The position numbers were made by a program, and so were the translations under genes. 64,000 nt of DNA from a plasmid: NCBI RefSeq assembly GCF_054482595.1, contig NZ_JBTHVH010000004.1; one strand, written 5' to 3'. Position 1 is the stretch's first letter; each line of letters starts with the position of its first letter. The notes under the pieces are model-generated. The model worked only from the letters and a program-made list of their open reading frames with translations, was not told the DNA's origin and searched no databases. This document shows, one piece after another, positions 142-46,594 of the stretch.

Positions 142-354
142 ATGTCTGACACAAAGCAGTCTTATTTAATGAAATTCCGTAAGTGTAGTTCGTTCGAAAC
201 GCTCGAAAAAGTATTTGAAAGGTTATGTGAAAAAAACTCGGGTGTCGCCTCTCTTGAAATTTCTGGTGCTTATGATCATCGTAAAGCCGAACTGACAATG
301 AAAAAGTTATATGACAAAGTTCCTGCGAGTGTGTGGACCTTTGTTCGCGAGTAA
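142..354 (+). CDS. hha: Hha/YmoA-family expression modulator (about 70 aa)
   Basis: ORF 136..354 with ATG at 142; translation matches the Hha pattern by eye ('YLMKFRKC..ETLEKV..DHRKAELTMKKLYDKVPASVW'). Confidence 0.7.
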   Translation: MSDTKQSYLMKFRKCSSFETLEKVFERLCEKNSGVASLEISGAYDHRKAELTMKKLYDKVPASVWTFVRE

Positions 355-714
355 TTATTAATATTGGCACAACAAAAAGACTGTGCCTAGATTTGAAAAT
401 AGTTTATGCCCCTTTCGGGGCTAAAGGCATTGTAATAGCCTGTCTTTTAAAGTTGTTTATTAAGTTCGGAGAAAAACTTTAATCATAAGCCAAGCCCACT
501 GCTAAATACATCCGATATTCTCCTTCATTTTATTAGAAGTGATAAAAGTTACTTTACCTAAACTTCTCTCTCAATATTTGTAAGGCTCTCATTTGATTTT
601 TGTCAAACATTAATCTGGAAGACGGAAAAATCATTTCTTTTAATACGTTTTACAGAAATCCTCCTCCGTTATTTCGGATATAGTTTGAATCATTATCAAA
701 AACGGGGTGCAGCC

Positions 715-1797
715 ATGCGTAAGAGTTATACATTTGGTATTCCATTTGGACTCCAGCGAGAATCAGGACTCTTTTTAGATATTACAGAGGTCAGCCGGGG
801 TATTGACTGTAACTGCATCTGCCCCGCTTGCAAAACTGATCTGTTAGCAAAGCAGGGGGAGGTCAAGCTTTGGCATTTCTCACACAGTACAGCTGTAGCC
901 GGTGACTGTGATGGTCTGATGGAAGCCATCCGGGGAAAGATTATTGAAGTCATCAACGAGCACCAGGTTCTTGGTTTCCCAAATCTTCTCGCTGGCGACG
1001 ATGGTGGGCCGGTTTCACTGAATGAGGTTAGTGGAAGCGGCAGTATGTTCGGAGGCACAGCTGATCTGTTCGTAAAGGTTAATGATTTATGTGTGGCCGT
1101 CTTTCTGGACAGGGATCGCAGCATTTCAGAGAAGTTAACCTTTGACCATCTTCATCCTTCCGAAAGAGTTGCCGCATTGCGTATCGATCTTCCTGATATT
1201 GAATATGAAATCAGTCAGGTGCAGCTCGGGCGACGTAAAACAACATACAGTGAGTGCATTGAAAGCCTGATCATTGATGAGACCAGTTCCCGGGAATGGC
1301 TATATCATCCATTAATGCATGAACTTGAATCTGAACCTCTTCAGGAGTATCGGGGACGGGAGCCTTCAGAGGAAGGGCCTCTTCTTCAGCGCCTTGCTGA
1401 CTGTAAGATGAAATTGCCTGATATCCTTCCGGGCAGTCATAACGCGCTAGTCAGGTTACAGCAGGATACGATTGTATGTCTGTGTCGGTTAACGGTTCGG
1501 GCTTATGACATCGCTCAGACCGATGAATTTCCTTTGTTCCTTCGCTATTTCAGGTTGCACTGCCTGGAAAACAGCGAACATGTCAGTTACGAAAGACTGA
1601 TCTGCTGGCAGGAAATGATTTCAAAAACCCAGGAAGGCCAGTCCTTGACACAAAACGAACTTGAATATCTTCATGAGATTGTCCGCATCGCCTTTTACAA
1701 TCACCGGCTTAACAATGTCAGTATTTCAGATGTTAAAAACCATGACACTGGAAAGAAGAGCGGCAGGGTAGAGTCACAAAATTATTCACTTTTATAA
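715..1797 (+). CDS. CoiA-like family protein (Cys-rich N-terminal zinc-finger-like motif)
   Basis: ORF 685..1797; ATG at 715 preferred over the TTG at 685. N-terminus 'CNCICPACKTDL..GEVKLWHFSHS' resembles the CoiA CxxC..HF(A/S)H signature. Confidence 0.5.
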   Translation: MRKSYTFGIPFGLQRESGLFLDITEVSRGIDCNCICPACKTDLLAKQGEVKLWHFSHSTAVAGDCDGLMEAIRGKIIEVINEHQVLGFPNLLAGDDGGPVSLNEVSGSGSMFGGTADLFVKVNDLCVAVFLDRDRSISEKLTFDHLHPSERVAALRIDLPDIEYEISQVQLGRRKTTYSECIESLIIDETSSREWLYHPLMHELESEPLQEYRGREPSEEGPLLQRLADCKMKLPDILPGSHNALVRLQQDTIVCLCRLTVRAYDIAQTDEFPLFLRYFRLHCLENSEHVSYERLICWQEMISKTQEGQSLTQNELEYLHEIVRIAFYNHRLNNVSISDVKNHDTGKKSGRVESQNYSLL

Positions 1798-1963: not shown

Positions 1964-3463
1964 TTAGTTTTCAACTAACTGAACGACGACCAGCCTGCCG
2001 CCTTCCTCCTTTGACAGAACAAACTGAGCGTTATTCGTCAGTTCAATTTTTTCCCCAATGGCAATCTGTCGTTTATCCGGTAATGACATAAGCCCATTTA
2101 TGCCTTCATTTACTAACCACCACTGATCGTTATGGAAAACAAAATACCCAACTCGTTTCCTTTGTGCATCGGTTGTGCGCTCATTTGGCGCAATGAGGCG
2201 ATTCACATGCCACGCATAGATTGACTGCCCGCTCCACACCATCAACCGGTGGTCGTCAGGACGATAACTGCCTTCCTTTCGGGATGAATATAAATTTAGA
2301 ACCGGTAATTTACCCTTGTATGGCGTACCGCAGTAGGGACAAACCGGCTTTGTCTTACCTGAGAAAACGTACCATTTCTGTTCACACGCCTTGTTCTGGC
2401 AGGGCTGTATCAGATCGACTGTTTTAACCAGGGCACTTTCCCACTCATCGGCGGTCGGGCGTTTATTGGCATCGTGTAAGCCATCAATAAAGGCGCGTTC
2501 AAACAAAGGCGTCAAATAAGGGCCCATGATGGTGTAAGGAATTTTCTCCGGGTCAGCCCAGGGCAGTGAAAAGGAGGATAGCTGACTGACTTTGACTGCA
2601 TTGCTTTTGTCTGTCGGATGTTCAATGAAGAGTGCCTTCTCACCCATAGATAAGGTCTCATCACGTACTTCATCCGACATGTCATGTATTTTTCCGCCAC
2701 GTAGCGGATGACGGAAGAACAGATACATGTAGATAAGCACCGACAGCGCATGACGGTCAGTAGAAATGCTTGGCAATACGCGGTTCGGATCCTCTTTGGA
2801 AAGATGGCTGGTTTTCACCACTTCCGGAGCGATAAAATCCGGGGTGCCCACGACGTCGGGAGGATACTTTCCAGGGACAACCAGGCCGTCTACGTCAATG
2901 ATGCAGGCATGTCCCATTTCTGGATCGATAAGCACGTTTTTATAGCTTAGATCGCTGTGACAGAGACCTGCCGCATGCATCCTTCTGACGGCTCTTGTTA
3001 GCAGCAGACAGACCTTGAGATAGGTAAGCGTATTGCCTCGTTCACGTGGGTCGAGAAATTTATTCTGGTTGCTGGCGCTGGCAAACCATTTGCCTTCCTT
3101 TTCACGGCCTTTTATGCCAAGAAAATCATCGTTTTTAGAGCCGTATTTAAAGAAAAAGTAGCTTTTGTAGGTTGGAACCACGATGCCGATTTTATCCCCA
3201 TGCTCAACAACGTGGGTCGGCCAGCAAAACAGGTCCTTCCAGTATTCACCTCCGGACTGGCCAAAAATGTTTTGCCTGTAGCGTCCGGTGATCATATCAA
3301 TCCGATCCCGGGCCTGCTCGTTCTGCGGTTTATGATAAAAAGCGACGACGTATGATTTATCAGGCGAGAAGTAAACATCCTTCATCGAGCCCGAACCAAT
3401 TACCTCGTCAACATACTGGACTGTTTCGCCGTCCTTTGTTTTGCACGTAACAATATTTGCCAT
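1964..3463 (-). CDS. Ser/Thr protein kinase with C-terminal Cys-rich zinc-ribbon region (ter-linked TerY-P type)
   Basis: Kinase motifs in translation: Gly-rich 'IGSGSMKDVY', catalytic loop 'HSDLSYKNVLID', 'IIDVDG' in the DFG position, 'FIAPEV' (APE). C-terminal 'CQNKACEQKW...CPYCG'. ATG at 3463 (M19 of the track ORF) sits 26 bp after the upstream stop. Confidence 0.8.
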   Translation of the reverse strand: MANIVTCKTKDGETVQYVDEVIGSGSMKDVYFSPDKSYVVAFYHKPQNEQARDRIDMITGRYRQNIFGQSGGEYWKDLFCWPTHVVEHGDKIGIVVPTYKSYFFFKYGSKNDDFLGIKGREKEGKWFASASNQNKFLDPRERGNTLTYLKVCLLLTRAVRRMHAAGLCHSDLSYKNVLIDPEMGHACIIDVDGLVVPGKYPPDVVGTPDFIAPEVVKTSHLSKEDPNRVLPSISTDRHALSVLIYMYLFFRHPLRGGKIHDMSDEVRDETLSMGEKALFIEHPTDKSNAVKVSQLSSFSLPWADPEKIPYTIMGPYLTPLFERAFIDGLHDANKRPTADEWESALVKTVDLIQPCQNKACEQKWYVFSGKTKPVCPYCGTPYKGKLPVLNLYSSRKEGSYRPDDHRLMVWSGQSIYAWHVNRLIAPNERTTDAQRKRVGYFVFHNDQWWLVNEGINGLMSLPDKRQIAIGEKIELTNNAQFVLSKEEGGRLVVVQLVEN

Positions 3464-3488
3464 ATTGATCACCGAAGAAGCGTATCCC

Positions 3489-5129
3489 TTACCACAACAC
3501 CGCAATAGTGCGGTCATCGTGGTTCCCTGTGGAGAAAAAGTTAAGCCAGTCGCCTAACCTCTCAGGCGCAATACTGGCGTCTGTAAGGACAGGGATGAGC
3601 TCATCAAGGAGACGGGTCCATTTTTCGTCACTGCGAAGCCCGTTATCTGTCTCAAACAGAGGGTCTGATACGCCATCTGTCATGAGGATCAAGTGAGATA
3701 CATCATTCCATTTACCCACGCTGATGCGGCCGCTAAACGAGGGGTCTGCGATAATGCTCTGGTCAAGAAAGCGGGTTTGTCCTGCGTATTCTCCGCTATC
3801 GGGATTTCCCAGTATCCTGACTTTACCGGAAGGGCTGTATGCACCTATCGCACCATCACCAAGCCAGAATGCAGCCGCAAACAGCTCGTTATCAGTTCGT
3901 AGCGCTACAGTTGCCAGTAGGGTTGTTGAATAGGATTTCACAGGTTGTTCTGCACAAATGGCTTCGTTCTGGATACTGTTGACCGCGAGCGTAGCTGCCT
4001 GTTTAAAATGATGAAGCATGGCGTTTATGGTTGCCTGCTGATCGCTCCCTTCCCACGCCGTGATGTGCTGCTTTAGATGGACGCCTTTCAAACCACTGAG
4101 CTGATTGAAAAGGTAATCGCCAGCCGTTTGGACTGCAATCCGGGAGCCTTCCCGGGAATTTACCGCACTACCGGCCCCGTCTGCGACCAGCATGACAGAC
4201 CATCCTGTTTCCTGGCAGTGGTTGATATAGAAGTCGTCATCTCTGAAGCTCCCGGCATGCTCATGAGATCGTCCCCGGCGACTGGCGGCAGCAATACGTA
4301 TGTCACCCCTGACCAGGCCAGCAGCGTCCAGATGGGACTTAGGGTAGGAAGCGTCTGCTGGTGGCTCTACCACCTTCCACAGGCTTCTCGGATCGGGATT
4401 GACTATAAAAAGCTGTTTTGTTTCGCATTCGTCGTGCGAAGCGCATGACCAGAGTACTGAAAGCTCTATATCGCCGCTTTCGGTGGGTGTACCTGTCAGC
4501 AACTTATGCTCTTTGTCAAAGGTCAGGCCAATGTTCCTGGGAAAGACAACGTCCCTGACAGTAGCCTGCTGGCCCTCATCCAGAACTATAGCAACCGGCG
4601 AAGAGAAACGTTCGCCTGCGCGGGCGTTGGGAATAACTATTTTAGCTCTCGGGGGAACGGCAGGTGGCACAGCTAATCCGGCCCGCTGCTGGCCTGTCGG
4701 TATCTGCCCGGGTTTTAATACCAGGGAAGACAGGTTTTCGTCTTCCCTCTGTGCTGGTTTATCAAATTCGTAATAAGGCATCAGCTTCCAGAACGGAGGA
4801 TGAGGTTCATTTTCTGGCAGGGGTTGCAGTAATGGTGTATCGGTAGCGTCAATGCCCGGGTTATCAGCATCACTTACGACCGTTTGTTGCTGATCGGAAA
4901 GGCTGGATGCTGACGAGGGGGCGATCTCTGCGTCGTTATAACCTTCGCTAACCCGCGCAGATAAACCCTGTGCAAGGCTCTCAATCCGCTCTTTAAGCCG
5001 CATAATCTCTTCAGTAAGGGAAGGGTCGTGCGATAGAAGAAAAAGCCGCTCACCTTCTACAGGGTGGCCCAGCTCAGACAGCACTAAGCGGATAATCTTC
5101 TCTTCAAGTAAAACATTTTGCGACATCAA
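3489..5129 (-). CDS. PP2C-family Ser/Thr protein phosphatase with long N-terminal extension
   Basis: PP2C signatures 'MLVADGAGSAVNSREGS' and 'LILMTDGVSD'. Its stop overlaps the downstream kinase region; its start overlaps the upstream vWA stop (ATGA). Confidence 0.8.
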   Translation of the reverse strand: MMSQNVLLEEKIIRLVLSELGHPVEGERLFLLSHDPSLTEEIMRLKERIESLAQGLSARVSEGYNDAEIAPSSASSLSDQQQTVVSDADNPGIDATDTPLLQPLPENEPHPPFWKLMPYYEFDKPAQREDENLSSLVLKPGQIPTGQQRAGLAVPPAVPPRAKIVIPNARAGERFSSPVAIVLDEGQQATVRDVVFPRNIGLTFDKEHKLLTGTPTESGDIELSVLWSCASHDECETKQLFIVNPDPRSLWKVVEPPADASYPKSHLDAAGLVRGDIRIAAASRRGRSHEHAGSFRDDDFYINHCQETGWSVMLVADGAGSAVNSREGSRIAVQTAGDYLFNQLSGLKGVHLKQHITAWEGSDQQATINAMLHHFKQAATLAVNSIQNEAICAEQPVKSYSTTLLATVALRTDNELFAAAFWLGDGAIGAYSPSGKVRILGNPDSGEYAGQTRFLDQSIIADPSFSGRISVGKWNDVSHLILMTDGVSDPLFETDNGLRSDEKWTRLLDELIPVLTDASIAPERLGDWLNFFSTGNHDDRTIAVLW

Positions 5130-6166
5130 CCTCTCCCTCTGTTTACGTCGAAGTTAGTGTTTCCGCCATCATTGCTGAATGACAGACCTGTTTCACACCA
5201 CGGGCAGATCACGTCATCCGGGCCGTCAATGCACAGCAATTTTCCGCATGAGCACAGGGCAAACGCACTGGCATTACCGCAGTGAGGGCAACCCGGTACG
5301 CCATGCAGTTCGCTGGTGTTTACCTGCAAACCGGTAGCGGTGGCATCTGACCATGCAAAATAGTCTTCATCGATGGGATAGCATCCGGCAATATTAAAGC
5401 TGTTCAGGTTCAGGCTGAAATCGAGCCCGGAAATCCTTGCTGGTGGCCGTTCATACTTCATCAGATACGGACGACGGGTCTTGCTGCAACGGCCGGTAAG
5501 CGTAACGCAGTTTTCGTCGTACGCTTTTACTGGCTCGTCCTTGGCCAGCCGGACTATGTATTCAGTCTGGCTGAGCTCAGGTTGTTTGTCGTCTCCGACG
5601 CTGCGGCTGTGCGCCGTAACCGAGGCTGTGATCCATTTGATGAAGCGGGTAAAGTCCCCTTCCTGAGACTCGGTGAACAGCATGACATTCTCTGTCAGTT
5701 GCCGCAGGGTATTCAGGTCCGCTGACGGCCCCAGGCCAACGGCAATGAGATTCACTTTACTCGCGTAGTGATCCTTCCAGCGCTTCACTTCTGCGGTTGT
5801 GTCGTCAGTCGGACGTCCGTCGGTAAGGAGATACACGACGGGTTTCCAGTCGCCTTTAGCCTCATGAGTGGTTTTTCTGACCTGGGTATCAATTTGTACG
5901 GTCAGCTCACGCAATGCGGCCCCAAGGCTCGTACCGCCGCCAACGGGAAGGCGGGGAGGGTAGAACGAGGCAATTTCGTGAAGAGGTACAATCGTACGGG
6001 CTACACCGGCAAATGCGATTACCGAAACCCAGGCTGTTTCAAGTGCGTGTGGATCCTTTCTTAAATCTCCGATGATCATTTGCAGACCATCAGTCATTTT
6101 TTTCAGGTTTTCACCAATCATGGACTCTGAACAGTCCAGGACAAAAAACACGGGAAGGCGTCTCAT
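5126..6166 (-). CDS. vWA-domain protein (TerY-like) with C-terminal zinc ribbon
   Basis: MIDAS motif 'FFVLDCSESM' directly after the start 'MRRLPV' (ATG at 6166 with GAGGAAAA RBS); C-terminal 'CPHCGN..CSCG..CPWC'. The track ORF N-extension to 6370 is rejected. Confidence 0.75.
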   Translation of the reverse strand: MRRLPVFFVLDCSESMIGENLKKMTDGLQMIIGDLRKDPHALETAWVSVIAFAGVARTIVPLHEIASFYPPRLPVGGGTSLGAALRELTVQIDTQVRKTTHEAKGDWKPVVYLLTDGRPTDDTTAEVKRWKDHYASKVNLIAVGLGPSADLNTLRQLTENVMLFTESQEGDFTRFIKWITASVTAHSRSVGDDKQPELSQTEYIVRLAKDEPVKAYDENCVTLTGRCSKTRRPYLMKYERPPARISGLDFSLNLNSFNIAGCYPIDEDYFAWSDATATGLQVNTSELHGVPGCPHCGNASAFALCSCGKLLCIDGPDDVICPWCETGLSFSNDGGNTNFDVNRGRG

Positions 6167-6251
6167 AATTTTCCTCGTACGGCTGGTACGGCCAGCAGAA
6201 AACGTTGCTGTACAGAAAGGTGCTGCCCGGAAAGCAGCACCTTTCTGTCTG

Positions 6252-6893
6252 TCAGAGCACCAGCTGGATTTCTGGTGGAGGAGGGGGAAGGGTATCAGTT
6301 CCGTTATTGATCCCCGCGCTTGTGCTGCCGGAAGACACGCTGGCCGATACCCATTTAAAGAAACCTGCAAACGCGGTTGAATCTAGCGTCTCCAGAGACA
6401 CAACCTTATCGGTGAGCTGTTTTAAGTGCTCATGGCCTGCTTTAGGACCAACGGCGCAGGCAATGATGGATCCGAATCCCCGGCCGCGAATCGCTTTTAC
6501 CGCTTCACCGTACGCCAGGGCATCAGAAGGGGTTCCATCAGTCATCAGGAATACCAGAGGACGCCAGTCTCCTTTTGTATCACCATCTGAGCGACGTACA
6601 TCCCGTTCAACACACTGCATCAGACATTCAAGGGCAGCACCGGTGAACGTCCCGCCTGCGCTTGGCACAACGATGTCAGAAAACTGGAAGTCTTCCAGCG
6701 GCGTGAGAGGAATGAACTCACGCGCCTCATTGTCATAGGTGATAATGGAGATATGAACGCTTTCGAGGGCGTAGGGATCCTGGCGAAGAGCGCTAAGCAT
6801 CGCCTGAATTCCAACGTTAACGGAATGGATGGACTCACCGCGCATCGAGCCGGATGTGTCGATAACAAGGTAAACAGGCAGGCGGCGCATCAC
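6252..6893 (-). CDS. vWA-domain protein, TerY-like
   Basis: 'MMRRLPVYLVIDTSGSM' gives the DxSxS MIDAS motif at the N-terminus; 213 aa. Confidence 0.8.
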   Translation of the reverse strand: MMRRLPVYLVIDTSGSMRGESIHSVNVGIQAMLSALRQDPYALESVHISIITYDNEAREFIPLTPLEDFQFSDIVVPSAGGTFTGAALECLMQCVERDVRRSDGDTKGDWRPLVFLMTDGTPSDALAYGEAVKAIRGRGFGSIIACAVGPKAGHEHLKQLTDKVVSLETLDSTAFAGFFKWVSASVSSGSTSAGINNGTDTLPPPPPEIQLVL

Positions 6894-13169: not shown

Positions 13170-14304
13170 AGGTAACAATCTCCACGACGGGCGCAACCTC
13201 AGCCAGGGCTTTAAGAAGCTGCGTGTCAATACTTTCTGCGGGTGTCTCAGTACACACAAGAATACGGTCAAACTGCTGGTGGGCGACGTTATAGACAAAA
13301 TTGGGGATGCCCAGCCCGTAGTTATCCGTAAAGGAAATGGCGGACTCAATGGCATAACCAACGGCGATAGGGGAGCGGGTGGTCGAACCATAAAGTGCCT
13401 GTGCTCCGGCAGCTTCGAGCCGTTCAGCAAGCAGGAACGGCTCCCAGACGAATTCCCCGGTCCCGAGAACCAGAATACGTTCCCCCTTGCGGACGGAGAC
13501 CTCATGGCCGAGATCGGCCGCAGGTGCGAGCATCCCCAGTCGACCCCAGGACTGTTTTCCCAGGATGTCCCATTCTCCGCGTGAAGTTACGTTGACTTTC
13601 GGCATGTCCGGGACAGGTGCATCAGGTAATGGGGTCCATCCCCACTGACCGCTTACAAGCGAAACCGAAGTGACGGGCAAGGATGTGCGCTCCGACAGGG
13701 CGTTGCTACTCCAGTCGGTAAGCGTAACGGCGATAACCTGTTCAATATGTTGAAGCTTGCCGGTATTACGCAGGGCAGAAAGCAGGTTAATAAAGGTATT
13801 ACCGGTGGTTGCCTCGTCATCAATCAAAACCAGCGTTCGTGCGTTGGTAACACGACGTCTTTTCTCTTCATCATCTGGCAGATAGATCAGATGATCGGTG
13901 GCGTGGCTGTGTTCTTCCTTGAACTCGCAAAGTAACGTGCCATCAACCGGGTGACGGGTAGAGGTCAGATAGACAGATTCACGATGCTGGTGGCGCACTT
14001 CATCAAACACACCGGCCCCTAGCCCAACGGCGGTTTCAGCCATACCGATAAAAAGTACGGGCCCTGCCAGCGTTGCGGGGAACTGGCTGGCAAGCTGTCT
14101 GTAGGCCTGCCGCATGACTGAGGGTGGCACGGGAATGTGCCTGCCGAGTACTTTGCTGACAAACAGAAAGGCGCGTTTCGGGTTACGTCTTTCAGCGATA
14201 TCAAACAGGTCATCGAGCGAAACATCACCCTGGTCGCGGGTTACCTGTATCGTACCGCATGAGAGGGTACGGCGATAAATCATATCTTCGAGGGTATCAG
14301 ACAT
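13162..14304 (-). CDS. Phosphoribosyltransferase-domain protein (PRTase_2/TRSP-like)
   Basis: PRPP-binding signature 'TLVLIDDEATTGNTF'; about 380 aa; ATG at 14304. Confidence 0.75.
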   Translation of the reverse strand: MSDTLEDMIYRRTLSCGTIQVTRDQGDVSLDDLFDIAERRNPKRAFLFVSKVLGRHIPVPPSVMRQAYRQLASQFPATLAGPVLFIGMAETAVGLGAGVFDEVRHQHRESVYLTSTRHPVDGTLLCEFKEEHSHATDHLIYLPDDEEKRRRVTNARTLVLIDDEATTGNTFINLLSALRNTGKLQHIEQVIAVTLTDWSSNALSERTSLPVTSVSLVSGQWGWTPLPDAPVPDMPKVNVTSRGEWDILGKQSWGRLGMLAPAADLGHEVSVRKGERILVLGTGEFVWEPFLLAERLEAAGAQALYGSTTRSPIAVGYAIESAISFTDNYGLGIPNFVYNVAHQQFDRILVCTETPAESIDTQLLKALAEVAPVVEIVTYE

Positions 14305-14313
14305 AAACACGCC

Positions 14314-15372
14314 TTAATTCAGATGGTTAGAGAGTGATTCCGGGTAAACGATGACATCTGTGATGGATCTCACTGCAACCGGAGAAAAGGTATTTCTGGC
14401 GCTCTGGATCACCGCATCTTCAGACATCAGACCGAGCTTAAAGGCAGCAAACAACCCGGGAAGGTTCACCCCGCTGTGAAGGGTATAACCCACCCCGCCT
14501 GACGGACGCATGTTGGTTTCAAGCAGCACCGGGTTGCCATTCACATCGTTTCGCGTCTGAACATTCACCAGCCCGTCGGCCTTCATAACCCGGGCGCAGT
14601 CACAAGCCAGTTCCCAGGCGCTTCCTTCGTTTACCAGATACTGGATAGCCCCTTCCTTACGGCGTCCCACGGCTGCGAGTATTTCGCCCTTATCCGCGAG
14701 GATATCGACGGAAAATTCCGGGCCTGGCAGGTACGGCATCAAAACAAGGGGTTTAAACGACTCAGAAGCCGATGCTGCTGCAATATACTGTTGCGGACTG
14801 ACCAGACGATGTTCGGGATGATTAAAGACGGCCATGGGCGAAGCACTGTCATCAAAGCGCCAGAATCCCATGCCATAGATACCCGTCACCGGCTTCACGC
14901 ATACCGGGCTGTCCGAGAACGGCGGGGCCGCGAGGTGCGTCTTTAATTCTGCCAGCGTATTCACCCGCCAGGACGGTACGACCGGGAGCCCGTTTTGCTC
15001 CATAAACTGAGCAAAAGTAACTTTTTCGTCAGCCAGAGTTAACCAGTCGACGCCTGTTGCACCGGTAGTAAGGGTGGCTCCGGTCGATTCAATGGCTGAA
15101 CGGTGTTCTTCAAACCACTGGCTGTTACGGCCAGTATGAATATGGTGGATGCCGTAGGTCTGAATGGTTTCCTGAATAAACTGAAGACGTTTTTGAGGAT
15201 CTTCAGGTTCAGTCAAAGAATAATCGGCAACGGAAAGAATTTCATGTCTTTCGTTACGGTGGGAGGCAAATACGGTAATAGCAAAATTATTTTTTTGTGC
15301 AAATGATTTTACCCCCTGAATAATATCTCGCTGGGAGGACAAACCTTCCATAAACCAAATTTTCTTGTTCAT
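14314..15372 (-). CDS. ATP-grasp family enzyme
   Basis: ATP-grasp motif 'LLETNMRPSGG'; first gene of the minus-strand operon, divergent from terZ. Confidence 0.75.
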   Translation of the reverse strand: MNKKIWFMEGLSSQRDIIQGVKSFAQKNNFAITVFASHRNERHEILSVADYSLTEPEDPQKRLQFIQETIQTYGIHHIHTGRNSQWFEEHRSAIESTGATLTTGATGVDWLTLADEKVTFAQFMEQNGLPVVPSWRVNTLAELKTHLAAPPFSDSPVCVKPVTGIYGMGFWRFDDSASPMAVFNHPEHRLVSPQQYIAAASASESFKPLVLMPYLPGPEFSVDILADKGEILAAVGRRKEGAIQYLVNEGSAWELACDCARVMKADGLVNVQTRNDVNGNPVLLETNMRPSGGVGYTLHSGVNLPGLFAAFKLGLMSEDAVIQSARNTFSPVAVRSITDVIVYPESLSNHLN

Positions 15373-15694
15373 TTTTTTTAATTATCCGGAACGCCATGCA
15401 AATTTATGATTGAGAAGTGAGTCTATGAGTGTCTACGCTACATGTCAATCATAATATGATTAATAACTTCAGTGGTTATGGAGTGCGTCAGTGTTTTTTT
15501 AGTACCTTATAACGTATTGATATTTAAATTAAAAATAGAAAAATGAACACCATGAAAAGGATTTATTTTTGTGTTTTTGAAGAAAACTACCAAAATTTCC
15601 CTTGTCAGAGAACTTCATCATGATATGATTTTCTTCGTCAGTTACTAAATATACCTTTGATTGTCTCGGTCATTACCATTTTAAGGAATAAAAC
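15373..15694. promoter_or_regulatory. AT-rich divergent control region between the biosynthesis operon and terZ
   Basis: 322-bp non-coding, strongly AT-rich gap between divergently transcribed operons; no specific promoter elements assigned. Confidence 0.4.
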
Positions 15695-16276
15695 ATGGTT
15701 TCATTAGTTAAGAACCAGACGGTATCACTCAGCAAAGAATCATCTGCATTAAGCCAGCTTCATTTCGGTCTCGGTTGGGATCCGGTTAAGAAAAAAGGTC
15801 TTCTTGGAGGATTGTTTGGAGGCAACGACTCAATCGATCTCGATGCTGGCTGCGTATTAATGGACAGCACCGGTAAAACAATTGACACCATCTGGTTCCG
15901 CAAACTGGAATCCACCTGCGGCGCTGTTGTGCACAGTGGCGATAACCTGACCGGTGAGGGTGACGGTGACGATGAGGTGATTAAGGTCAACCTCTCCCGA
16001 CTGCCTGCAAACGTTGAATACCTGGCGTTTACGGTAAACAGCTTCCGTGGTCAGTCGTTCAATGACGTCGAAAACGCGTTCTGCCGCGTTGTCGATCAAA
16101 CCGGCAAAGAGCTGGCTCGCTACAAGCTGACTGAGCAGGGCTCACATACCGGGATCGTTATTTCTTCGCTGCGCCGTAATAACGGCAACTGGGACTTTAC
16201 CGCCCTTGGCCATGCCTGTCGCGGCCGCACAATTGACGATATGCACTCCGATATCGTTTCAGCGGTTATTCGCTAA
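15695..16276 (+). CDS. terZ: Tellurite resistance protein TerZ (TerD family)
   Basis: '[15 protein letters not shown]' TerD motif; 193 aa; first gene of the Z-A-B-C-D-E order. Confidence 0.85.
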   Translation: MVSLVKNQTVSLSKESSALSQLHFGLGWDPVKKKGLLGGLFGGNDSIDLDAGCVLMDSTGKTIDTIWFRKLESTCGAVVHSGDNLTGEGDGDDEVIKVNLSRLPANVEYLAFTVNSFRGQSFNDVENAFCRVVDQTGKELARYKLTEQGSHTGIVISSLRRNNGNWDFTALGHACRGRTIDDMHSDIVSAVIR

Positions 16277-17433
16277 TGAACCTGACGCCGGGGGGCAATG
16301 CCCCCGTTCCAGCCCAGGAGTTGCGGGTCCGGATCACCTCGGGCGGCCAGGTGGATGCTTCGGCGTTTCGCCTGTATGCCGACGGGAAGGTGCAGGGTGA
16401 TGCGGACATGGTGTTTTATGGTCAGCCACGTAACGATGATGGTACCGTCAGCCTGGTCAGTGAAGGCCAGTACTCAACCTTTACTGTCGCGCTCAACCGG
16501 CTGAAACCTGATGTCCAGAAAATTGCGTTCACCGTGACCTGTGACGGTGGGCAGACGGTGTCCGGTCTTCGTAATCTTTCCATCGACGTGGAGCAAGGGG
16601 CTACCGGCCTGGTTAGCGGCAGTGTCGAACTGAGCGGCCGTCAGGAAGCAGCCTTAATTCTGGGTGAATTTTACCGTCGTAATAATGACTGGAAATTCCG
16701 CTTCGTTGCGCAGGGGTTCAACGGTGGACTTAAACCGCTGGCAGAGCATTTCGGCGTAAATATTGCCGACGAACCGGCTCCCGCAGCCCCGACTCCTCCG
16801 GTTGTAACCCCTCCGCCAGTTGAGACAAAAATCAGCCTGAGCAAGGTATCGCTGACAAAAGAGAAGCCTGCAATCAGCCTGACCAAACGGGATAACTTCG
16901 GTGAAATCCGGATCAACCTGAACTGGCACCGGGGCAGCGGCAAATCAGGCTTTGCAGGCATGTTCGGCTCCAAAGGAATCGACCTGGATCTGGGGGCCTT
17001 TGTTGAGCTTCAGGACGGGTATAAATCGGTCATTCAGGCGCTCGGTAATGCATTCGGTAATTATCGGGATGAACCGTATGTTCAGCTCAAGGGCGATGAC
17101 CGTACGGGTGATGTATCAGACGGCGAGTGGCTGCATATCAATGGACGTGAATGGAAGCATATCCGCGAAGTGCTGATTTACGCCTTTATTTATGAAGGTG
17201 TTCCCAGCTGGGACAAGACTGATGGTGTGGTCACCATTCATGTGCCGGATCAACCGCCCATTGAGACCCGCCTGACCGAAGGTGAAAACCGTCGCACATT
17301 GTGCGCCATTGCCAGACTCGTAAACGAAAACGGCGCAATTAAAGTCGAGCGAATTAACCAGTACTTCAAAGGCCAGGACGAAATGGACCGGGCATTTGGC
17401 TGGGGATTTCGCTGGAGCGCCGGTTCTAAATAA
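16276..17433 (+). CDS. terA: Tellurite resistance protein TerA
   Basis: 385 aa with two TerD-like halves; its start overlaps the terZ stop (TAATGA). Confidence 0.8.
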   Translation: MNLTPGGNAPVPAQELRVRITSGGQVDASAFRLYADGKVQGDADMVFYGQPRNDDGTVSLVSEGQYSTFTVALNRLKPDVQKIAFTVTCDGGQTVSGLRNLSIDVEQGATGLVSGSVELSGRQEAALILGEFYRRNNDWKFRFVAQGFNGGLKPLAEHFGVNIADEPAPAAPTPPVVTPPPVETKISLSKVSLTKEKPAISLTKRDNFGEIRINLNWHRGSGKSGFAGMFGSKGIDLDLGAFVELQDGYKSVIQALGNAFGNYRDEPYVQLKGDDRTGDVSDGEWLHINGREWKHIREVLIYAFIYEGVPSWDKTDGVVTIHVPDQPPIETRLTEGENRRTLCAIARLVNENGAIKVERINQYFKGQDEMDRAFGWGFRWSAGSK

Positions 17434-17455
17434 CACAGCAACAAAGGAAACAGGT

Positions 17456-17911
17456 ATGAGCTTTTTCGACAAAGTTAAAGGTGCCATTAACTCAGGCCGT
17501 GACGAACTGACCCGCCAGGTTGGCCGTTTCAAAAACAAAAAATTCATGCAGGGCACCGTTGCTGTATGTGCCCGTATTGCCGTATCGAGTGACGGCGTAA
17601 GTTCGGAAGAAAAGCAGAAAATGATGGGCTTTCTGCGCTCTTCAGAAGAGCTGAAGGTCTTCGATACCAATGAGGTGATTGAGTTCTTCAATAAACTGGT
17701 TTCAAGCTTCGATTTCGATGTTGAAATCGGCAAGGGCGAAACCATGAAATACATCCTGGCGCTGAAAGATCAGCCTGAGGCCGCTCAGCTGGCCTTACGT
17801 GTTGGTATTGCCGTTGCGAAAAGTGACGGTAACTTCGATCAGGACGAGAAACTGGCCTCCCGCGAGATCGCTATCGCGTTGGGCTTCGACCCGGCTGAAT
17901 TTGGCCTCTGA
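17456..17911 (+). CDS. terB: Tellurite resistance protein TerB
   Basis: 151 aa; ATG at 17456 with AAAGGAAACAGG RBS; the track N-extension is rejected. Confidence 0.8.
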   Translation: MSFFDKVKGAINSGRDELTRQVGRFKNKKFMQGTVAVCARIAVSSDGVSSEEKQKMMGFLRSSEELKVFDTNEVIEFFNKLVSSFDFDVEIGKGETMKYILALKDQPEAAQLALRVGIAVAKSDGNFDQDEKLASREIAIALGFDPAEFGL

Positions 17912-17933
17912 TCCACATCCCTAAGGGTAAAAT

Positions 17934-18974
17934 ATGGTTTCCACACACATCGGCTTCCCGACTGAAACGGTCATTGTTTTTATTGCGCTTTCAGTCGGTG
18001 CCATCTTTATTGACCTGTTTATGCACCGTGATGACAAGCCTATCTCGCTGAAGAGTGCGGCGCTCTGGTCCGTATTCTGGGTTGTGGTTGCGATGGCATT
18101 TGCCGGTTTCCTCTATATCCACCACGGTGCTGAGGTTGCCAGTCTGTTTGTCACGGGTTATGCGCTGGAGAAAGTGCTGTCGGTCGATAACCTGTTCGTC
18201 ATGATGGCCATCTTCTCCTGGTTCGCCGTTCCGGATCGTTATCGCCACCGTGTTCTCTACTGGGGGATCATTGGTGCCATTGTCTTCAGGGGCATCTTTG
18301 TCGCCATCGGTACGAGCCTGCTGAGTCTGGGGCCGTACGTTGAAGTTGTCTTCGCTATTATCGTTGCCTGGACAGCGGTCATGATGCTTAAAAGCGGTGA
18401 TGACGATGATGAAATTGAGGATTACTCCCAGCATCTGGCTTACCGCATGGTTAAACGCTTCTTCCCTATCTGGCCGAAGCTCAGAGGGCATGCCTTCCTG
18501 CTTAACCAGAAGGAAGTGGATGCTGAACTGGCGAAACCAGAAAACAGCGATGTCACCATTGGCCGTGGTAAAAAAGCGGCGCTGTATGCGACCCCGCTGT
18601 TCCTGTGTGTAGCTGTGGTTGAACTCTCGGACGTAATGTTCGCGTTTGACTCGGTACCGGCAATCATTGCCGTCAGTCGTGAACCGCTTATCGTCTATAG
18701 TGCCATGATGTTTGCTATCCTGGGCCTGCGTACTCTGTACTTTGTCCTTGAGGCACTGAAACAGTACCTGGTTCATCTGGAGAAGGCCGTTATCGTGCTG
18801 CTGTTCTTCATCGCGGCAAAACTCGGCCTGAATGCGACCGATCACATCTGGCATCATGGTTACAGCATCGCGGCAACAACCAGCCTGTATGTTGTACTGG
18901 GTGTACTGGCGCTGGGCATTCTCGCAAGCGTCATGTTCCCGGGCAAACCTGAATCTGAGGAAAAGGGGAGTTAA
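17934..18974 (+). CDS. terC: Tellurite resistance integral membrane protein TerC
   Basis: 346 aa with multiple hydrophobic segments, in the expected position. Confidence 0.85.
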   Translation: MVSTHIGFPTETVIVFIALSVGAIFIDLFMHRDDKPISLKSAALWSVFWVVVAMAFAGFLYIHHGAEVASLFVTGYALEKVLSVDNLFVMMAIFSWFAVPDRYRHRVLYWGIIGAIVFRGIFVAIGTSLLSLGPYVEVVFAIIVAWTAVMMLKSGDDDDEIEDYSQHLAYRMVKRFFPIWPKLRGHAFLLNQKEVDAELAKPENSDVTIGRGKKAALYATPLFLCVAVVELSDVMFAFDSVPAIIAVSREPLIVYSAMMFAILGLRTLYFVLEALKQYLVHLEKAVIVLLFFIAAKLGLNATDHIWHHGYSIAATTSLYVVLGVLALGILASVMFPGKPESEEKGS

Positions 18975-19022
18975 TCCCCTTAAGTGTTAACCTGAACAAT
19001 TACTAATCGAAGAGGTTATTTT

Positions 19023-19601
19023 ATGAGTGTTTCTCTTTCCAAAGGCGGGAACGTCTCCCTGAGTAAAGCAGCTCCGTCAATGAAAAACGTCCTGGTGGGC
19101 CTTGGCTGGGATGCGCGTTCAACAGACGGTCAGGACTTTGACCTGGATGCTTCAGCGTTCCTGCTGGCCTCAAACGGCAAAGTGCGCGGCGATTCAGATT
19201 TCATCTTCTATAACAACCTGACGTCATCTGACGGTTCCGTAACCCATACCGGTGATAACCGTACCGGTGAAGGTGATGGTGATGATGAATCGCTGAAAAT
19301 TAAACTGGACGCCGTCCCGTCTGATGTTGACAAGATCATCTTCGTTGTCACTATCCATGATGCTCAGGCTCGTCGCCAGAGCTTTGGTCAGGTATCCGGT
19401 GCGTTTATTCGCCTGGTCAATGACGATAACCAGACTGAAGTCGCTCGCTACGATCTGACCGAAGATGCGTCCACTGAGACTGCCATGCTGTTCGGCGAGC
19501 TGTATCGCCACAATGGTGAGTGGAAATTCCGCGCAGTGGGCCAGGGTTATGCTGGTGGTCTGGCATCTGTATGTGCTCAGTACGGCATTAACGCGTCCTG
19601 A
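19023..19601 (+). CDS. terD: Tellurite resistance protein TerD
   Basis: '[15 protein letters not shown]'; 192 aa. Confidence 0.85.
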
Positions 19602-23804: not shown

Positions 23805-24197
23805 ATGGACGATAAAGAGCAGTTTACGAATCTTGTGGCAAAGCATGCCTCCGGACTCACCGAAGAGCAGCTGGCCGGGTACGATGCCTGTTCCCTGGAT
23901 GGTGAATGCGTCACGCCTTCATACGAGGTTTTCCGGGGGTATCGTACCCGCCACACACTGGATGAATTTCTGGAGATGGCCATATCGCTGAATGCCATCC
24001 ACCCGGATGAATATTTAACGGATATGCTGCTGAAGCCTCATGAGGTGATCGGCGCTCTGGCCGATGAAGGCGACCAGCTGAACAACGCCACCCCGGTTTA
24101 TTTCTTTCCGGATACCGGCGTCTATGCAGCGGCCGTTAGTGAAACCCGGGTGCTCGATGCCTGGCTTTGCTGGCCATGCTACCCGGCGAACTGGTAA
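23805..24197 (+). CDS. Hypothetical protein (about 130 aa)
   Basis: ORF 23766..24197; internal Met (MDDKEQ) is the likely start; no family recognised. Confidence 0.35.
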   Translation: MDDKEQFTNLVAKHASGLTEEQLAGYDACSLDGECVTPSYEVFRGYRTRHTLDEFLEMAISLNAIHPDEYLTDMLLKPHEVIGALADEGDQLNNATPVYFFPDTGVYAAAVSETRVLDAWLCWPCYPANW

Positions 24198-24797: not shown

Positions 24798-25094
24798 ATG
24801 ATCAATAATGATTACCCGTTAAACACGCTCAACCAGCTGCGTCCCTTGCTCATTGGTTTTCGCAAGGCGAATGGCCTGACGCAAAAAGACCTGTCCGAAA
24901 GGTTAGGCGTCACTCAACAGACATACTCACGTCTGGAAGCCAACCCTGCCAGTGCGAGCATTGAACGGCTATTCAAGGTGTTTTCCATCCTGGGCGTAAA
25001 AATCAGCTTCTCCTCGGCAACCACCTCTTCAGAGAGGAAGCAGACGGAAGAAATGCTTAAATCAAACTCACCTGCACGACAGGAGGATTGGTAA
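24798..25094 (+). CDS. hipB: HipB-like antitoxin (XRE-family HTH)
   Basis: HTH 'LTQKDLSERLGVTQQTYSRLE'; directly upstream of the hipA-like gene. Confidence 0.8.
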   Translation: MINNDYPLNTLNQLRPLLIGFRKANGLTQKDLSERLGVTQQTYSRLEANPASASIERLFKVFSILGVKISFSSATTSSERKQTEEMLKSNSPARQEDW

Positions 25095-25098
25095 CGAT

Positions 25099-26424
25099 AT
25101 GAGCCGGAAACAGCAACGTCTGGTAATTTGGATGAACGGCATCAAAGTCGGGTACTGGGAAAAAAGCAAAGGGGTAGACAGCTTAGAATACCTTCCTGAA
25201 TGGGTTGCTGACGAACAGGGAAGGCCGCTGTCATTGTCCCTTCCTTTTACTCCCGGGAACCAGGTCTGGCGTGGAAATGTGGTACGTGACTATTTTGATA
25301 ATTTACTGCCGGACAGCGAAGGCATACGCAGACGTCTGGCAATGCGTTACAAGGCCGATAGCCTGGAGCCTTTTGATCTGCTGACGGAGCTGGGAAAAGA
25401 CTGCGTGGGCGCGATACAGCTGCTTCATGACGGAGATGAACCCACTGATTTATATTCCGTGAAGTATCACCCGCTTACTGAATCAGAAATTGCGGCAACT
25501 TTGCGTAATACCACGGAGACATTGCTACCGGGCAGGCCAGAAGATAACGACGACTTACGTTTATCTATTGCCGGTGCTCAGGAGAAAACAGCCCTACTGT
25601 GGCATGAAGATCGGTGGTGTATGCCGGAGGGTAATACACCAACGACGCATATATTCAAGCTACCGCTCGGACTTGTGGGGAACATGAAAGCCGACATGAG
25701 CTCGTCGGTTGAAAATGAATGGCTCTGCTCGGTACTTCTCGGCCAGTACGGGCTCCCCGTGGCAAGAACGCAGATTGCTCACTTTGAAGATCAGAAAGCG
25801 CTGGTGGTAGAACGTTTTGACCGAAAATGGTCAGGAGACGGACAATGGATCATTCGTTTACCCCAGGAGGATATGTGTCAGGCCCTGGGCGTTTCGCCAT
25901 TACGAAAATATCAGGCGGACGGCGGGCCAGGTATATCGGAAATTATGGAGGTTCTGAGTAATTCAGACCGTGCTGAGCGTGACAAAGCGCAGTTTTTTAT
26001 GACGCAGATAATTTTCTGGATGATGGCCGCAACAGATGGCCACGCTAAAAATTTCAGTATTTCTATTGGGCCACAGGGACGTTATCACCTTACACCAAAC
26101 TATGATGTGTTGTCGGCATGGCCGGTGATCGGTCATGGGAACAATCAGATATCCTGGCAGAAGTGCAAATTGGCGATGGCCGTACGTGGCAGTAGCAACT
26201 ATTACCAGATATATCGAATACAACGACGCCACTGGATCAGGCATGGTGAGATAACCGGCCTGAGTAAACAGCAGACAGAGGCGATGATAGAGGAAATCAT
26301 CGCCAGAACCCCAGGTGTCATTGAACGTGTTAGCGGGCTTCTTCCGGACCAGTTCCCCCAGCAGCTTGCGGAAAGTATTTTTGATGGAATGAGGCAGCAA
26401 TGCAGGCGCCTGGCTGAGAAATGA
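25099..26424 (+). CDS. hipA: HipA-family toxin kinase
   Basis: 441 aa; N-terminal region aligns by eye with E. coli HipA ('VGYW..YLPEWVA..RPLSLSLP..DNLLPDS..FDLL..G.DCVGA'); AGGAGGA RBS. Confidence 0.85.
   Translation: MSRKQQRLVIWMNGIKVGYWEKSKGVDSLEYLPEWVADEQGRPLSLSLPFTPGNQVWRGNVVRDYFDNLLPDSEGIRRRLAMRYKADSLEPFDLLTELGKDCVGAIQLLHDGDEPTDLYSVKYHPLTESEIAATLRNTTETLLPGRPEDNDDLRLSIAGAQEKTALLWHEDRWCMPEGNTPTTHIFKLPLGLVGNMKADMSSSVENEWLCSVLLGQYGLPVARTQIAHFEDQKALVVERFDRKWSGDGQWIIRLPQEDMCQALGVSPLRKYQADGGPGISEIMEVLSNSDRAERDKAQFFMTQIIFWMMAATDGHAKNFSISIGPQGRYHLTPNYDVLSAWPVIGHGNNQISWQKCKLAMAVRGSSNYYQIYRIQRRHWIRHGEITGLSKQQTEAMIEEIIARTPGVIERVSGLLPDQFPQQLAESIFDGMRQQCRRLAEK

Positions 26425-45033: not shown

Positions 45034-46594
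<1,561 letters not shown>

What the first reader, a model, noticed from the sequence alone, without database searches (positions are those of the whole stretch)
142..1797. Hha-like modulator next to a CoiA-like Cys-rich gene at the window edge
Hha-family proteins partner with H-NS to silence horizontally acquired DNA on large plasmids. A CoiA-like gene (a family normally tied to natural competence in Gram-positives) is unexpected in an enterobacterial plasmid context and has no obvious role here.
Basis: partly seen in the sequence, partly recalled or inferred. Interest (0 to 1): 0.3.

Follow-up and report, generated by a model that had tools for sequence, protein, structure and literature searches.

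The report
Plasmid Hha gene beside CoiA-type zinc-finger protein
Two conserved backbone genes of an IncHI2 resistance plasmid sit here: the known silencing co-factor Hha, and an uncharacterised protein that shares only its zinc finger with the competence nuclease CoiA and has a nuclease-like core that lacks two of the three usual catalytic acids.

Summary
Window 142-354(+) encodes a 70-aa Hha (Pfam HHA, E 8.6e-19) that is 90% identical to the studied Hha of plasmid R27. Window 715-1797(+) encodes a 360-aa Cys-rich protein annotated as hypothetical in RefSeq.

The "CoiA-like" label is only partly right.
- Only the N-terminal zinc finger matches CoiA: Pfam CoiA_N scores 32.5 bits against a cut-off of 26.3, and hhalign against real streptococcal CoiA gives 95% probability.
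- Neither the protein nor 100 relatives match CoiA's nuclease domain.
- It keeps the beta2 Asp. By alignment to a minority clade that keeps an E-D-E set, it has Met and Phe where that clade has its two Glu, and conserved Arg residues nearby.

Relatives are common: 4029 clusters, many in Proteobacteria, so the enterobacterial setting is not odd. The order Tus, recombinase, hha, this gene is kept across IncHI plasmids down to 34% identity. The ter/TerY-P genes next door are an IncHI2-specific insertion.

No hns gene lies upstream. In this plasmid a resistance region has deleted the usual backbone hns. My best guess for function is an accessory DNA-binding or DNA-processing protein, not a competence factor.

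The parts
142..354 (+). hha: a 70-aa Hha/YmoA-family co-repressor that binds H-NS
   Evidence: Pfam PF05321, E 8.6e-19. NCBIfam Hha subfamily, E 2.6e-21. 90% identical to R27 Hha. RefSeq WP_001285422.1.
355..714 (+). AT-rich intergenic region (about 33% GC). It holds a conserved -10-like TATAGT at 679-684 and a GGGG ribosome-binding site at 704-707. The rest is not conserved among IncHI lineages.
   Evidence: Composition. In the alignment with three other lineages only TCGATATAC/GT and the ribosome-binding site are shared, and the gap length ranges from 85 to 360 nt. No significant RNA fold (z = -0.8). No Rfam hit.
715..1797 (+). 360-aa protein WP_001232449.1, orthologue of R27 R0176. It has a CoiA_N-type zinc finger, a restriction-endonuclease-fold core and a helical C-terminal domain.
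805..912 (+). Zinc-finger module, residues 31-66. It contains C32, C34, C36, C39, W53, H54, H57 and C65.
   Evidence: CoiA_N hit. C36, C39, H57 and C65 are invariant, and C32, C34 and H54 are at least 93% conserved, in 101 relatives. Aligns with CoiA C26, C29, H44, H47 and C53.
910..1314 (+). Restriction-endonuclease-like (PD-(D/E)xK fold) core, residues 66-200. It keeps D117, but has M69 and F130 where a minority clade of the family has its two glutamates. R73, R135, R193, W195, H198 and P199 are conserved.
1375..1719 (+). Helical C-terminal domain, residues 221-335. It is found only in the plasmid-borne subfamily.

Best explanation
The locus holds two separate, conserved backbone genes of the IncHI plasmid group.

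**Gene 1, hha.** It is the plasmid copy of the small co-repressor that binds H-NS and strengthens silencing of AT-rich, horizontally acquired DNA. In R27 this includes the transfer genes at 37 C. That mechanism is established knowledge. Because this plasmid has lost its own hns, its Hha must work with the host's H-NS or StpA (inferred).

**Gene 2.** It is not a competence protein. It belongs to a large, unnamed, mostly proteobacterial family with this build:
- a CoiA-type zinc finger;
- a restriction-endonuclease-fold core;
- in the plasmid subfamily only, an extra helical C-terminal domain.

A minority clade of the family keeps an E-D-E set of acidic residues. In the majority clade, which includes this protein, both Glu are replaced by aromatic or Met residues, two Arg are gained, and the Asp is kept.

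**Most likely mechanism (inferred).** The zinc finger and the remodelled, basic pocket bind DNA, probably single-stranded or branched DNA or a DNA end, as in CoiA. Cleavage is weak, non-canonical or absent. The C-terminal domain recruits a partner. The gene has its own promoter, is dispensable for plasmid maintenance, and is expressed more at 37 C. This fits an accessory role in plasmid DNA transactions or in conflict with other mobile elements.
For: **Shown for hha**
- Identity of hha.

**Shown for gene 2: family and fold**
- Zinc-finger homology to CoiA.
- Endonuclease-like fold.
- All 101 family members match CoiA_N. CoiA_nuc is not among the families matched by three or more members.
- The family has 4029 representatives at E <= 1e-3.

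**Shown for gene 2: active-site columns**
- D117 is kept in 98/101 sequences.
- Position 130 is Y48 / F24 / E12.
- E69 and E130 occur together, with H73 and without R135, in about 12 sequences.
- The other members have F/Y/M at 69 and Y/F at 130, together with R73 and R135.

**Shown for gene 2: gene order**
- The order Tus, recombinase(-), hha, gene 2 is kept in IncHI2, in IncHI-like contigs at 58-62% identity, and in Klebsiella IncHI1B at 34% identity.
- In R27 the pair is split by RepFIA plus IS1, yet gene 2 stays intact.
- A conserved TATAGT lies upstream of gene 2.

**Shown for gene 2: selection**
- Purifying selection acts on it.

**From papers**
- R27 deletion 15 (150,566-156,499) covers the orthologue at 154,290-155,363. 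It was obtained without loss of plasmid stability (PMC4853401 text and supplement).
- R0176 is 5.2-fold and hha 2.5-fold higher at 37 C than at 25 C (PMC7366339 Table 1).
Against: - No biochemical or genetic phenotype exists for gene 2 or for any family member, so the function is inferred from fold and residues only.
- I could not read the model coordinates. Whether D117, R73, R135, R193 and H198 form one pocket is therefore untested.
- D132 and D134 are invariant in the IncHI subfamily and could rebuild a metal site. Vsr is a precedent for an enzyme of this fold that works with a single Asp (my knowledge).
- The CoiA profile used was shallow (mitis-group streptococci only, Neff about 2), so remote homology of the cores is not excluded.
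- Equating R0176 with the orthologue rests on gene order and coordinates, not on a sequence listed in the paper.
Confidence: 0.5

Rival explanations
1. Gene 2 is a working partner of Hha/H-NS. It would be a catalytically dead DNA-binding protein that helps target or modulate silencing on the plasmid, and it would be co-expressed with hha.
For: - hha and gene 2 are adjacent and co-directional in lineages as far apart as 34% identity. In Klebsiella IncHI1B only 85 nt separate them.
- Both are higher at 37 C in R27.
- The canonical catalytic glutamates are missing.
- The intergenic region is AT-rich.
Against: - The whole backbone segment from Tus to gene 2 is syntenic, so adjacency may simply reflect backbone conservation.
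- In R27 the pair is separated by 3.8 kb of RepFIA and IS1.
- The full-length relatives P0013 and P0014 have no hha neighbour.
- Family members in chromosomal islands stand alone.
- Hha is well studied, and I know of no such partner having been reported.
Confidence: 0.15
2. Gene 2 is a single-gene defence, exclusion or anti-defence factor that uses a non-canonical nuclease site against incoming phage or rival plasmid DNA.
For: - It has a nuclease fold and a zinc finger.
- It is dispensable for plasmid stability.
- Short relatives sit alone in integrase, IS, HipA and HNH islands.
- The 42%-identical P0013 lies 18 nt after a DUF6933 gene that matches the PADLOC defence candidate PDC-S63 at E 1e-42.
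- IncHI backbones carry HNH endonuclease genes nearby.
Against: - No relevant PADLOC match for gene 2, and none for P0013, P0014 or P0021. Gene 2's only listed hit is a marginal CorA-like one (E 0.0022, 14.8 bits).
- No PHROG match for gene 2, P0013 or P0021.
- Two of the three canonical acidic residues are lost.
- Its fixed backbone position across IncHI lineages is unlike the typical variable placement of defence genes.
Confidence: 0.25
3. Gene 2 is a true CoiA orthologue acting in natural transformation.
For: - The CoiA_N hit is above Pfam's threshold.
- Domain order is the same: zinc finger, then an endonuclease-fold core.
- NCBI names truncated copies 'competence protein CoiA family protein'.
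- A phage 'Competence protein' appears among the fold matches (E 2e-3).
Against: - No CoiA_nuc or CoiA C-terminal match in this protein or in 100 relatives.
- hhalign aligns the zinc finger only.
- CoiA's D95...E105-x-Q107 motif is D117...F130-x-D132 here, by indirect alignment.
- The C-terminal domain is different.
- According to bioRxiv 10.1101/2024.02.06.579203, CoiA is confined to Bacillota and other bacteria use YraN.
- The gene is plasmid backbone and is not part of a competence regulon.
Confidence: 0.03
4. Gene 2 belongs functionally to the neighbouring ter / TerY-P (VWA, PP2C, kinase) stress system as its DNA-processing arm.
For: - It lies convergent with the TerY-P kinase, 167 nt away.
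- The literature reports TerY-P triads linked to DNA-processing and restriction genes (PMC11090510).
Against: - Orthologues in R27, in IncHI-like contigs and in IncHI1B have no ter or TerY-P genes next to them.
- Relative to R27, window 1.96-23.7 kb is an insertion between gene 2 and the backbone gene at 23805-24194.
Confidence: 0.03

Closest known systems
Hha of IncHI1 plasmid R27 (R0182), in the Hha/YmoA family
   Same: - 90% identical over 70 aa.
- Same position next to the Cre-like recombinase and Tus.
- The same Pfam family.
- The YDHR motif contains the Asp that corresponds, by my recollection of the E. coli sequence, to D48. PMC4519777 (abstract listed) reports D48 as essential for H-NS binding.
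   Different: - In this window the plasmid's own hns partner gene has been deleted.
- No tomB-like gene lies upstream, unlike chromosomal hha (my knowledge of tomB-hha; for this plasmid).
CoiA of Streptococcus pneumoniae and other Bacillota (Pfam CoiA_N + CoiA_nuc + CoiA_C)
   Same: - The N-terminal zinc finger is homologous: CPxC...HFxH...C.
- It is followed by a PD-(D/E)xK-fold domain in the same order.
- The beta2 Asp is kept.
   Different: - No sequence match to the CoiA nuclease or C-terminal domains.
- The alpha1 and beta3 Glu positions carry Met and Phe here.
- Two extra Cys (C32, C34).
- Extra beta-hairpins in the core.
- An unrelated helical C-terminal domain.
- Located on a plasmid backbone in Enterobacteriaceae and not in a competence regulon.
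Unnamed family of about 270-320-aa proteins: CoiA_N finger (overlapping Pfam DUF7828/DUF7830), endonuclease-fold core, WxYHPR motif, often a C-terminal zinc ribbon. Example: Shewanella piezotolerans protein P0163.
   Same: - Residues 9-210 align at E down to 1e-24.
- Same invariant residues.
- Same remodelled Y/F-D-Y/F plus Arg pocket in most members.
   Different: - The window protein lacks the C-terminal zinc ribbon and carries a helical domain instead.
- It deviates at several family-typical positions: S67G, M75K, Q78E, T132D.
PD-(D/E)xK endonucleases such as Hjc, NucS, Vsr, TT1808/COG4636 and YraN
   Different: - Only one of the canonical acidic residues is present.
- Similarity is at fold level only, with 5-13% identity.

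Membership tests
Hha/YmoA family (PF05321) | Significant match to the family model over the whole small protein (about 70 aa, single domain) | tested here: met
   PF05321: E 8.6e-19, 68 bits against a cut-off of 25, residues 10-65 on model positions 1-56 of 57. The NCBIfam Hha subfamily hit (E 2.6e-21, 75.6 bits) falls below that model's strict cut-off of 90.
Hha/YmoA family (PF05321) | Close identity to an experimentally studied member | tested here: met
   90% identical to R27 Hha. The role of R27 Hha in thermoregulated conjugation is reported by Forns et al. 2005, as cited in PMC7366339.
Hha/YmoA family (PF05321) | Conserved Asp needed for H-NS binding (D48 of E. coli Hha, PMC4519777) | tested here: inconclusive
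   The sequence reads GAYDHRKAELTMKKLYDK. I equate this Asp with D48 from my recollection of the E. coli sequence. No alignment to E. coli Hha was run.
Hha/YmoA family (PF05321) | Physical binding to H-NS | not testable with these tools
   Needs a pull-down or two-hybrid experiment.
TomB-Hha toxin-antitoxin pair | A tomB-like gene immediately upstream in the same operon | tested here: not met
   The upstream gene is a divergently transcribed tyrosine recombinase.
CoiA competence protein family | N-terminal C2H2-type zinc finger (PF25164 CoiA_N) | tested here: met
   32.5 bits against 26.3, E 6.3e-8. hhalign against real CoiA: 95% probability, E 2e-8.
CoiA competence protein family | CoiA nuclease domain (PF06054) | tested here: not met
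   No hit at E <= 1 for this protein. At E <= 5, PF06054 is not among the 25 families listed for the 101 relatives, the least frequent of which matched 3 members. The core-against-core hhalign is null, though the CoiA profile was shallow.
CoiA competence protein family | Catalytic D...E-x-Q motif (PMC1189080; D in beta2 and E in beta3 per bioRxiv 10.1101/2024.02.06.579203) | tested here: not met
   CoiA has D95...E105-V-Q107. The window protein has D117...F130-L-D132. The equivalence is inferred through family members that keep the Glu and through strand position, not from a direct alignment.
CoiA competence protein family | CoiA C-terminal domain | tested here: not met
   A whole-library Pfam scan gives only CoiA_N. 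The C-terminal domain is a helical bundle confined to plasmid relatives.
CoiA competence protein family | Belongs to the competence regulon of Bacillota and is required for transformation | tested here: not met
   The gene is part of the IncHI plasmid backbone in Enterobacteriaceae. Regulon membership as such was not tested.
CoiA competence protein family | ssDNA endonuclease activity | not testable with these tools
   Needs a biochemical assay.
PD-(D/E)xK (restriction-endonuclease-like) fold superfamily | The alpha-beta-beta-beta-alpha-beta core fold | tested here: met
PD-(D/E)xK (restriction-endonuclease-like) fold superfamily | Complete set of acidic and basic catalytic residues | tested here: not met
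   Only the beta2 Asp (D117) is kept. About 12% of the family keeps an E-D-E set, and the window protein is not among them.
Ter / TerY-P stress-response system | Conserved linkage with the VWA, PP2C and kinase triad or with ter genes | tested here: not met
   Orthologues in four other lineages have no such neighbours. The ter block is an insertion relative to R27.
Known anti-phage defence systems (PADLOC-DB v2) | Match to a defence-protein model | tested here: not met
   Only a marginal, irrelevant CorA-like hit (E 0.0022, 14.8 bits). None for P0013, P0014 or P0021.

The most novel reading that the evidence does not exclude
The majority clade of this family, including the IncHI protein, would be a CoiA-derived endonuclease fold converted from a cutter into a binder. 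Both catalytic Glu are swapped for aromatic or Met residues and two Arg are gained. On IncHI plasmids this binder would act together with Hha and host H-NS, or on the transferred single strand, to control plasmid establishment or silencing. That would make it a previously unrecognised, conserved third component of the IncHI 'stealth' module.
Probability: 0.1. Interest if true: 0.6.

Novelty: new variant of a known kind. Interest (0 to 1): 0.3.

Why it matters
IncHI2 plasmids are major carriers of mcr-9, carbapenemase and other resistance genes, and most of their backbone genes are unannotated.

- **Annotation.** Truncated copies of this protein are already named "competence protein CoiA family" in NCBI. 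The work here shows that the name is earned only by the zinc finger. This guards against spreading a misleading competence label on enterobacterial plasmids.
- **A defined family to test.** The results define a large, uncharacterised family (zinc finger plus endonuclease fold) with a clear split between a minority clade that keeps E-D-E and a majority clade with a remodelled site. The split is directly testable.
- **A link to silencing.** The gene's fixed position beside hha across very distant IncHI lineages gives a concrete candidate for anyone looking for further players in plasmid silencing or establishment.
- **Hha without plasmid H-NS.** This plasmid keeps hha but has lost its own hns. 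That is relevant to work on the fitness cost and "stealth" of IncHI plasmids.

Tried and rejected
2. **Sequence searches of the PDB.** Searches with the single protein, the family profile and the full-length profile all found nothing meaningful.
3. **AFDB50 fold search.** The library was not available, so similarity to predicted CoiA structures could not be measured directly.
4. **Other profile libraries.** NCBIfam, PADLOC and PHROGs gave no useful match for gene 2.
5. **CoiA sequences.** I obtained them by querying with a CoiA-like probe written from memory, and used only the returned database proteins. They cover only mitis-group streptococci, so the null core-to-core comparison is weak negative evidence.
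6. **RNA elements between the genes.** The terminator and promoter scans were at chance level. The RNA fold is not significant. There was no Rfam hit in the region.
7. **Link to the TerY-P triad.** Rejected from comparative gene order.
8. **Is R0183 of R27 the orthologue?** No. R0183 is the Cre-like recombinase. The orthologue is R0176.
9. **dN/dS.** A numerical ratio could not be computed because dS is saturated.
10. **Literature search for CoiA with IncHI.** It returned only an author surname.
Full report
**Where the window comes from.** The first 2 kb match 1210 plasmid records at 90-100% identity. These are mostly conjugative plasmids of Escherichia, Salmonella and Enterobacter, and the one I opened is typed IncHI2A, for example pD90-1, NZ_CP022451. 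The finding therefore lies in the IncHI2 backbone.

**Observation.** Two co-directional ORFs are present as described.
- hha runs from 142 to 354 and encodes 70 aa. It matches Pfam HHA at E 8.6e-19 and the NCBIfam Hha subfamily at E 2.6e-21. It is 90% identical to the Hha of the IncHI1 plasmid R27.
- The second gene runs from 715 to 1797 and encodes 360 aa. It starts MRKSYT after a GGGG ribosome-binding site. It contains C32-x-C34-x-C36-P-x-C39...W53-H54-F-S-H57...C65. RefSeq calls it a hypothetical protein, WP_001232449.1.
- Against R27, synonymous sites are saturated while dN is 0.18 for this gene and 0.07 for hha. tblastn finds the protein in 2810 plasmids, 2495 of them nearly full length. 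Both are real genes under purifying selection.

**How much of it is CoiA?** Only the zinc finger.
- The only Pfam hit is CoiA_N (PF25164): residues 33-59, 32.5 bits against a gathering score of 26.3.
- I recovered genuine streptococcal CoiA proteins, which carry PF06054 and PF25164 and are named CoiA by NCBI and UniRef. I compared a 101-sequence profile of the window protein's family with them.
- hhalign aligns only residues 14-70 with CoiA residues 5-59 (95% probability, E 2e-8). The alignment pairs C36/C39/H54/H57/C65 with CoiA C26/C29/H44/H47/C53.
- Comparing the cores alone gives nothing. The CoiA profile was shallow, so this is weak negative evidence.
- All 101 family members match CoiA_N. 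CoiA_nuc is not among the families matched by three or more members.
- DUF7828 and DUF7830, which many members hit weakly, cover the same finger region.

**What the rest is.**
- An exhaustive HMM search finds 4029 cluster representatives at E <= 1e-3, and 658 at E <= 1e-10.
- Most are 270-320 aa and align to positions 9-210. Many end in a zinc ribbon.
- With this depth, AlphaFold models residues 1-216 at pLDDT 94.7 and pTM 0.91.
- Foldseek against viral models gives nucleases, restriction enzymes and one phage "Competence protein".
- The architecture is therefore a zinc finger followed by a PD-(D/E)xK-fold core, the same order as in CoiA (bioRxiv 10.1101/2024.02.06.579203; PMC1189080).
- Residues 221-335 form a helical domain. 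Among the listed hits of the exhaustive search, only three complete proteins match along the full length. The Klebsiella IncHI1B orthologue also has it. It has no recognisable relatives.

**The active site.** CoiA shows D95 in "QIAD" and E105-V-Q107 in "LALEVQCS". This is the PD-ExQ variant described in PMC1189080.
- In the family, the beta2 Asp (D117 here) is kept in 98 of 101 sequences.
- The beta3 position is Tyr in 48, Phe in 24 and Glu in only 12.
- The sequences with Glu there also have Glu in helix 1 (position 69) and His at 73, and they lack Arg135.
- All the others, the window protein included (M69, F130), have aromatic or Met residues at both Glu positions, together with R73 and R135.
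- K/R193, W195, H198 and P199 are conserved throughout.
- This is a coordinated remodelling and not random decay.
- The equivalence F130 = CoiA E105 is an inference. It rests on strand position and on the Glu-keeping family members, not on a direct alignment.
- I could not inspect the coordinates, so the geometry of the pocket is untested.
- D132 and D134 are invariant in the IncHI subfamily. A non-canonical metal site therefore cannot be excluded.

**Context.**
- Upstream in the parent replicon lie a tyrosine recombinase on the opposite strand and, further on, a Tus-like gene. There is no hns within 12 kb.
- The order Tus, recombinase(-), hha, gene 2 recurs in IncHI-like contigs where gene 2 is 58-62% identical.
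- It also recurs in Klebsiella IncHI1B/IncFIB plasmids, where gene 2 is 34% and Hha 50% identical and the gap is only 85 nt.
- In R27 a RepFIA replicon flanked by IS1 has been inserted between the two genes.
- The intergenic sequence is not conserved, apart from a -10-like TATA(C/G)T about 30 nt before the start and the ribosome-binding site. This suggests that gene 2 has its own promoter.
- More distant full-length relatives have no hha neighbour. P0013 (42% identical) follows a resolvase, a 552-aa HTH protein, an AAA_22 ATPase and a DUF6933 gene. The first three resemble a Tn5053-type tni module (my reading), and DUF6933 matches the PADLOC candidate PDC-S63 at E 1e-42. P0014 lies in an integrase island.
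- Short family members stand alone in genomic islands.
- The ter/TerY-P genes downstream are not linked to gene 2. R27 backbone genes resume at 23805, so window 1.96-23.7 kb is an insertion relative to R27.

**Published data on the R27 orthologue.**
- The orthologue lies at R27 154,290-155,363. This is the last ORF before IS1 (R0177/R0178), so it corresponds to R0176. It lies inside deletion 15 (150,566-156,499) of PMC4853401.
- That deletion was obtained, and only deletion 16 reduced plasmid stability.
- In PMC7366339 Table 1, R0176 is 5.2-fold and hha 2.5-fold higher at 37 C than at 25 C.

**hns.**
- R27 has hns 5.7 kb beyond gene 2. The IncHI-like contigs have it 7.5 kb downstream.
- Intact IncHI2 plasmids have it about 4 kb past an HNH gene that follows hipA.
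- In this window the backbone breaks at 27461, inside that HNH gene and next to an IS26. It resumes at about 53490.
- Neither the R27 H-NS nor the IncHI2 H-NS finds a match anywhere in the 64 kb.
- This plasmid therefore keeps hha but has lost the backbone hns from this position. Whether a copy exists elsewhere on the replicon was not checked.
- In the plasmid collection, 736 records hold an H-NS 80-90% identical to R27's, the band in which the IncHI2 copy (81%) falls. About 1124 records hold gene 2 at 95% identity or more. This is consistent with frequent loss.

**Verdict.** hha is known and ordinary. The neighbour is not a competence gene. It is a member of a large, unnamed family (CoiA-type finger plus endonuclease fold) and belongs to the clade whose catalytic glutamates were replaced, with a plasmid-specific helical tail. 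Its function is unknown. I commit, at about 50%, to an accessory DNA-binding or DNA-processing role that is independent of competence and dispensable for maintenance. The main rivals are a defence or exclusion role (0.25) and an Hha/H-NS partner role (0.15). Interest is modest.

Noticed in passing
window 27461-53490: The IncHI2 backbone breaks inside an HNH endonuclease gene (only residues 1-82 of 271 remain, ending at 27461), next to an IS26 at 27517-28218. It resumes at about 53490 in a truncated hypothetical gene. In an intact IncHI2 plasmid the missing stretch holds hns, and no hns is detectable anywhere in the window. This plasmid keeps hha but has lost its backbone hns.
   Followed up: yes
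window 1964-23700: The ter cluster is an insertion relative to IncHI1 R27. It contains a TerY-P triad (kinase 1964-3517, PP2C 3489-5129, TerY VWA + TerY_C 5126-6370, all on the minus strand). It sits between gene 2 and the backbone gene at 23805-24194, which is 95% identical to its R27 counterpart.
   Followed up: partly
window 24801-26424: An HTH gene plus hipA (441 aa) toxin-antitoxin pair of the IncHI2 backbone, 96-98% identical to that of pA2483mcr-9.
   Followed up: partly
window 27517-28218, 38849-39550, 41780-42481, 45097-45798, 49052-49753: Five identical IS26 transposase genes lie within the resistance region. A sixth, 45%-identical IS6-family gene lies at 30871-31491.
   Followed up: partly
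window 41428-41503 (-): An Rfam AAC_AAD_leader / attI match (74.3 bits). This marks a class 1 integron in the resistance region.
   Followed up: no
window 50450-53479 (+): A 1009-aa ORF ends right at the point where the backbone resumes. Its size suggests a Tn3-family transposase that forms the right edge of the resistance region. This was not checked.
   Followed up: no
L013 (R27) 14291-19403: In R27 the hha / gene 2 pair is split by a 3.8-kb RepFIA (repE) plus IS1 insertion. Gene 2 therefore does not need to be co-transcribed with hha.
   Followed up: yes
L005 3974-9038; also L006-L008: On other Salmonella and E. coli plasmids a 42%-identical full-length relative lies 18 nt after a DUF6933 gene that matches the PADLOC defence candidate PDC-S63 (E 1e-42). 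Upstream of both are a resolvase, a 552-aa HTH protein and an AAA_22 ATPase, which resemble a Tn5053-like tni module.
   Followed up: partly
alignment A3 (family-wide): About 12% of the family keeps Glu in helix 1 and in strand beta3, with His73 and without Arg135. The rest have aromatic or Met residues at both positions, together with Arg73 and Arg135. This is a clean two-state split that suggests a switch from cutting to binding.
   Followed up: partly
NCBI names seen: Truncated N-terminal fragments of this protein are named 'competence protein CoiA family protein', while full-length copies are called 'hypothetical protein'. The inconsistency arises because the zinc finger dominates the short fragments.
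   Followed up: no
L012 4661-6148: In the Klebsiella IncHI1B plasmid a group II intron (ltrA) sits between the recombinase and hha.
   Followed up: no
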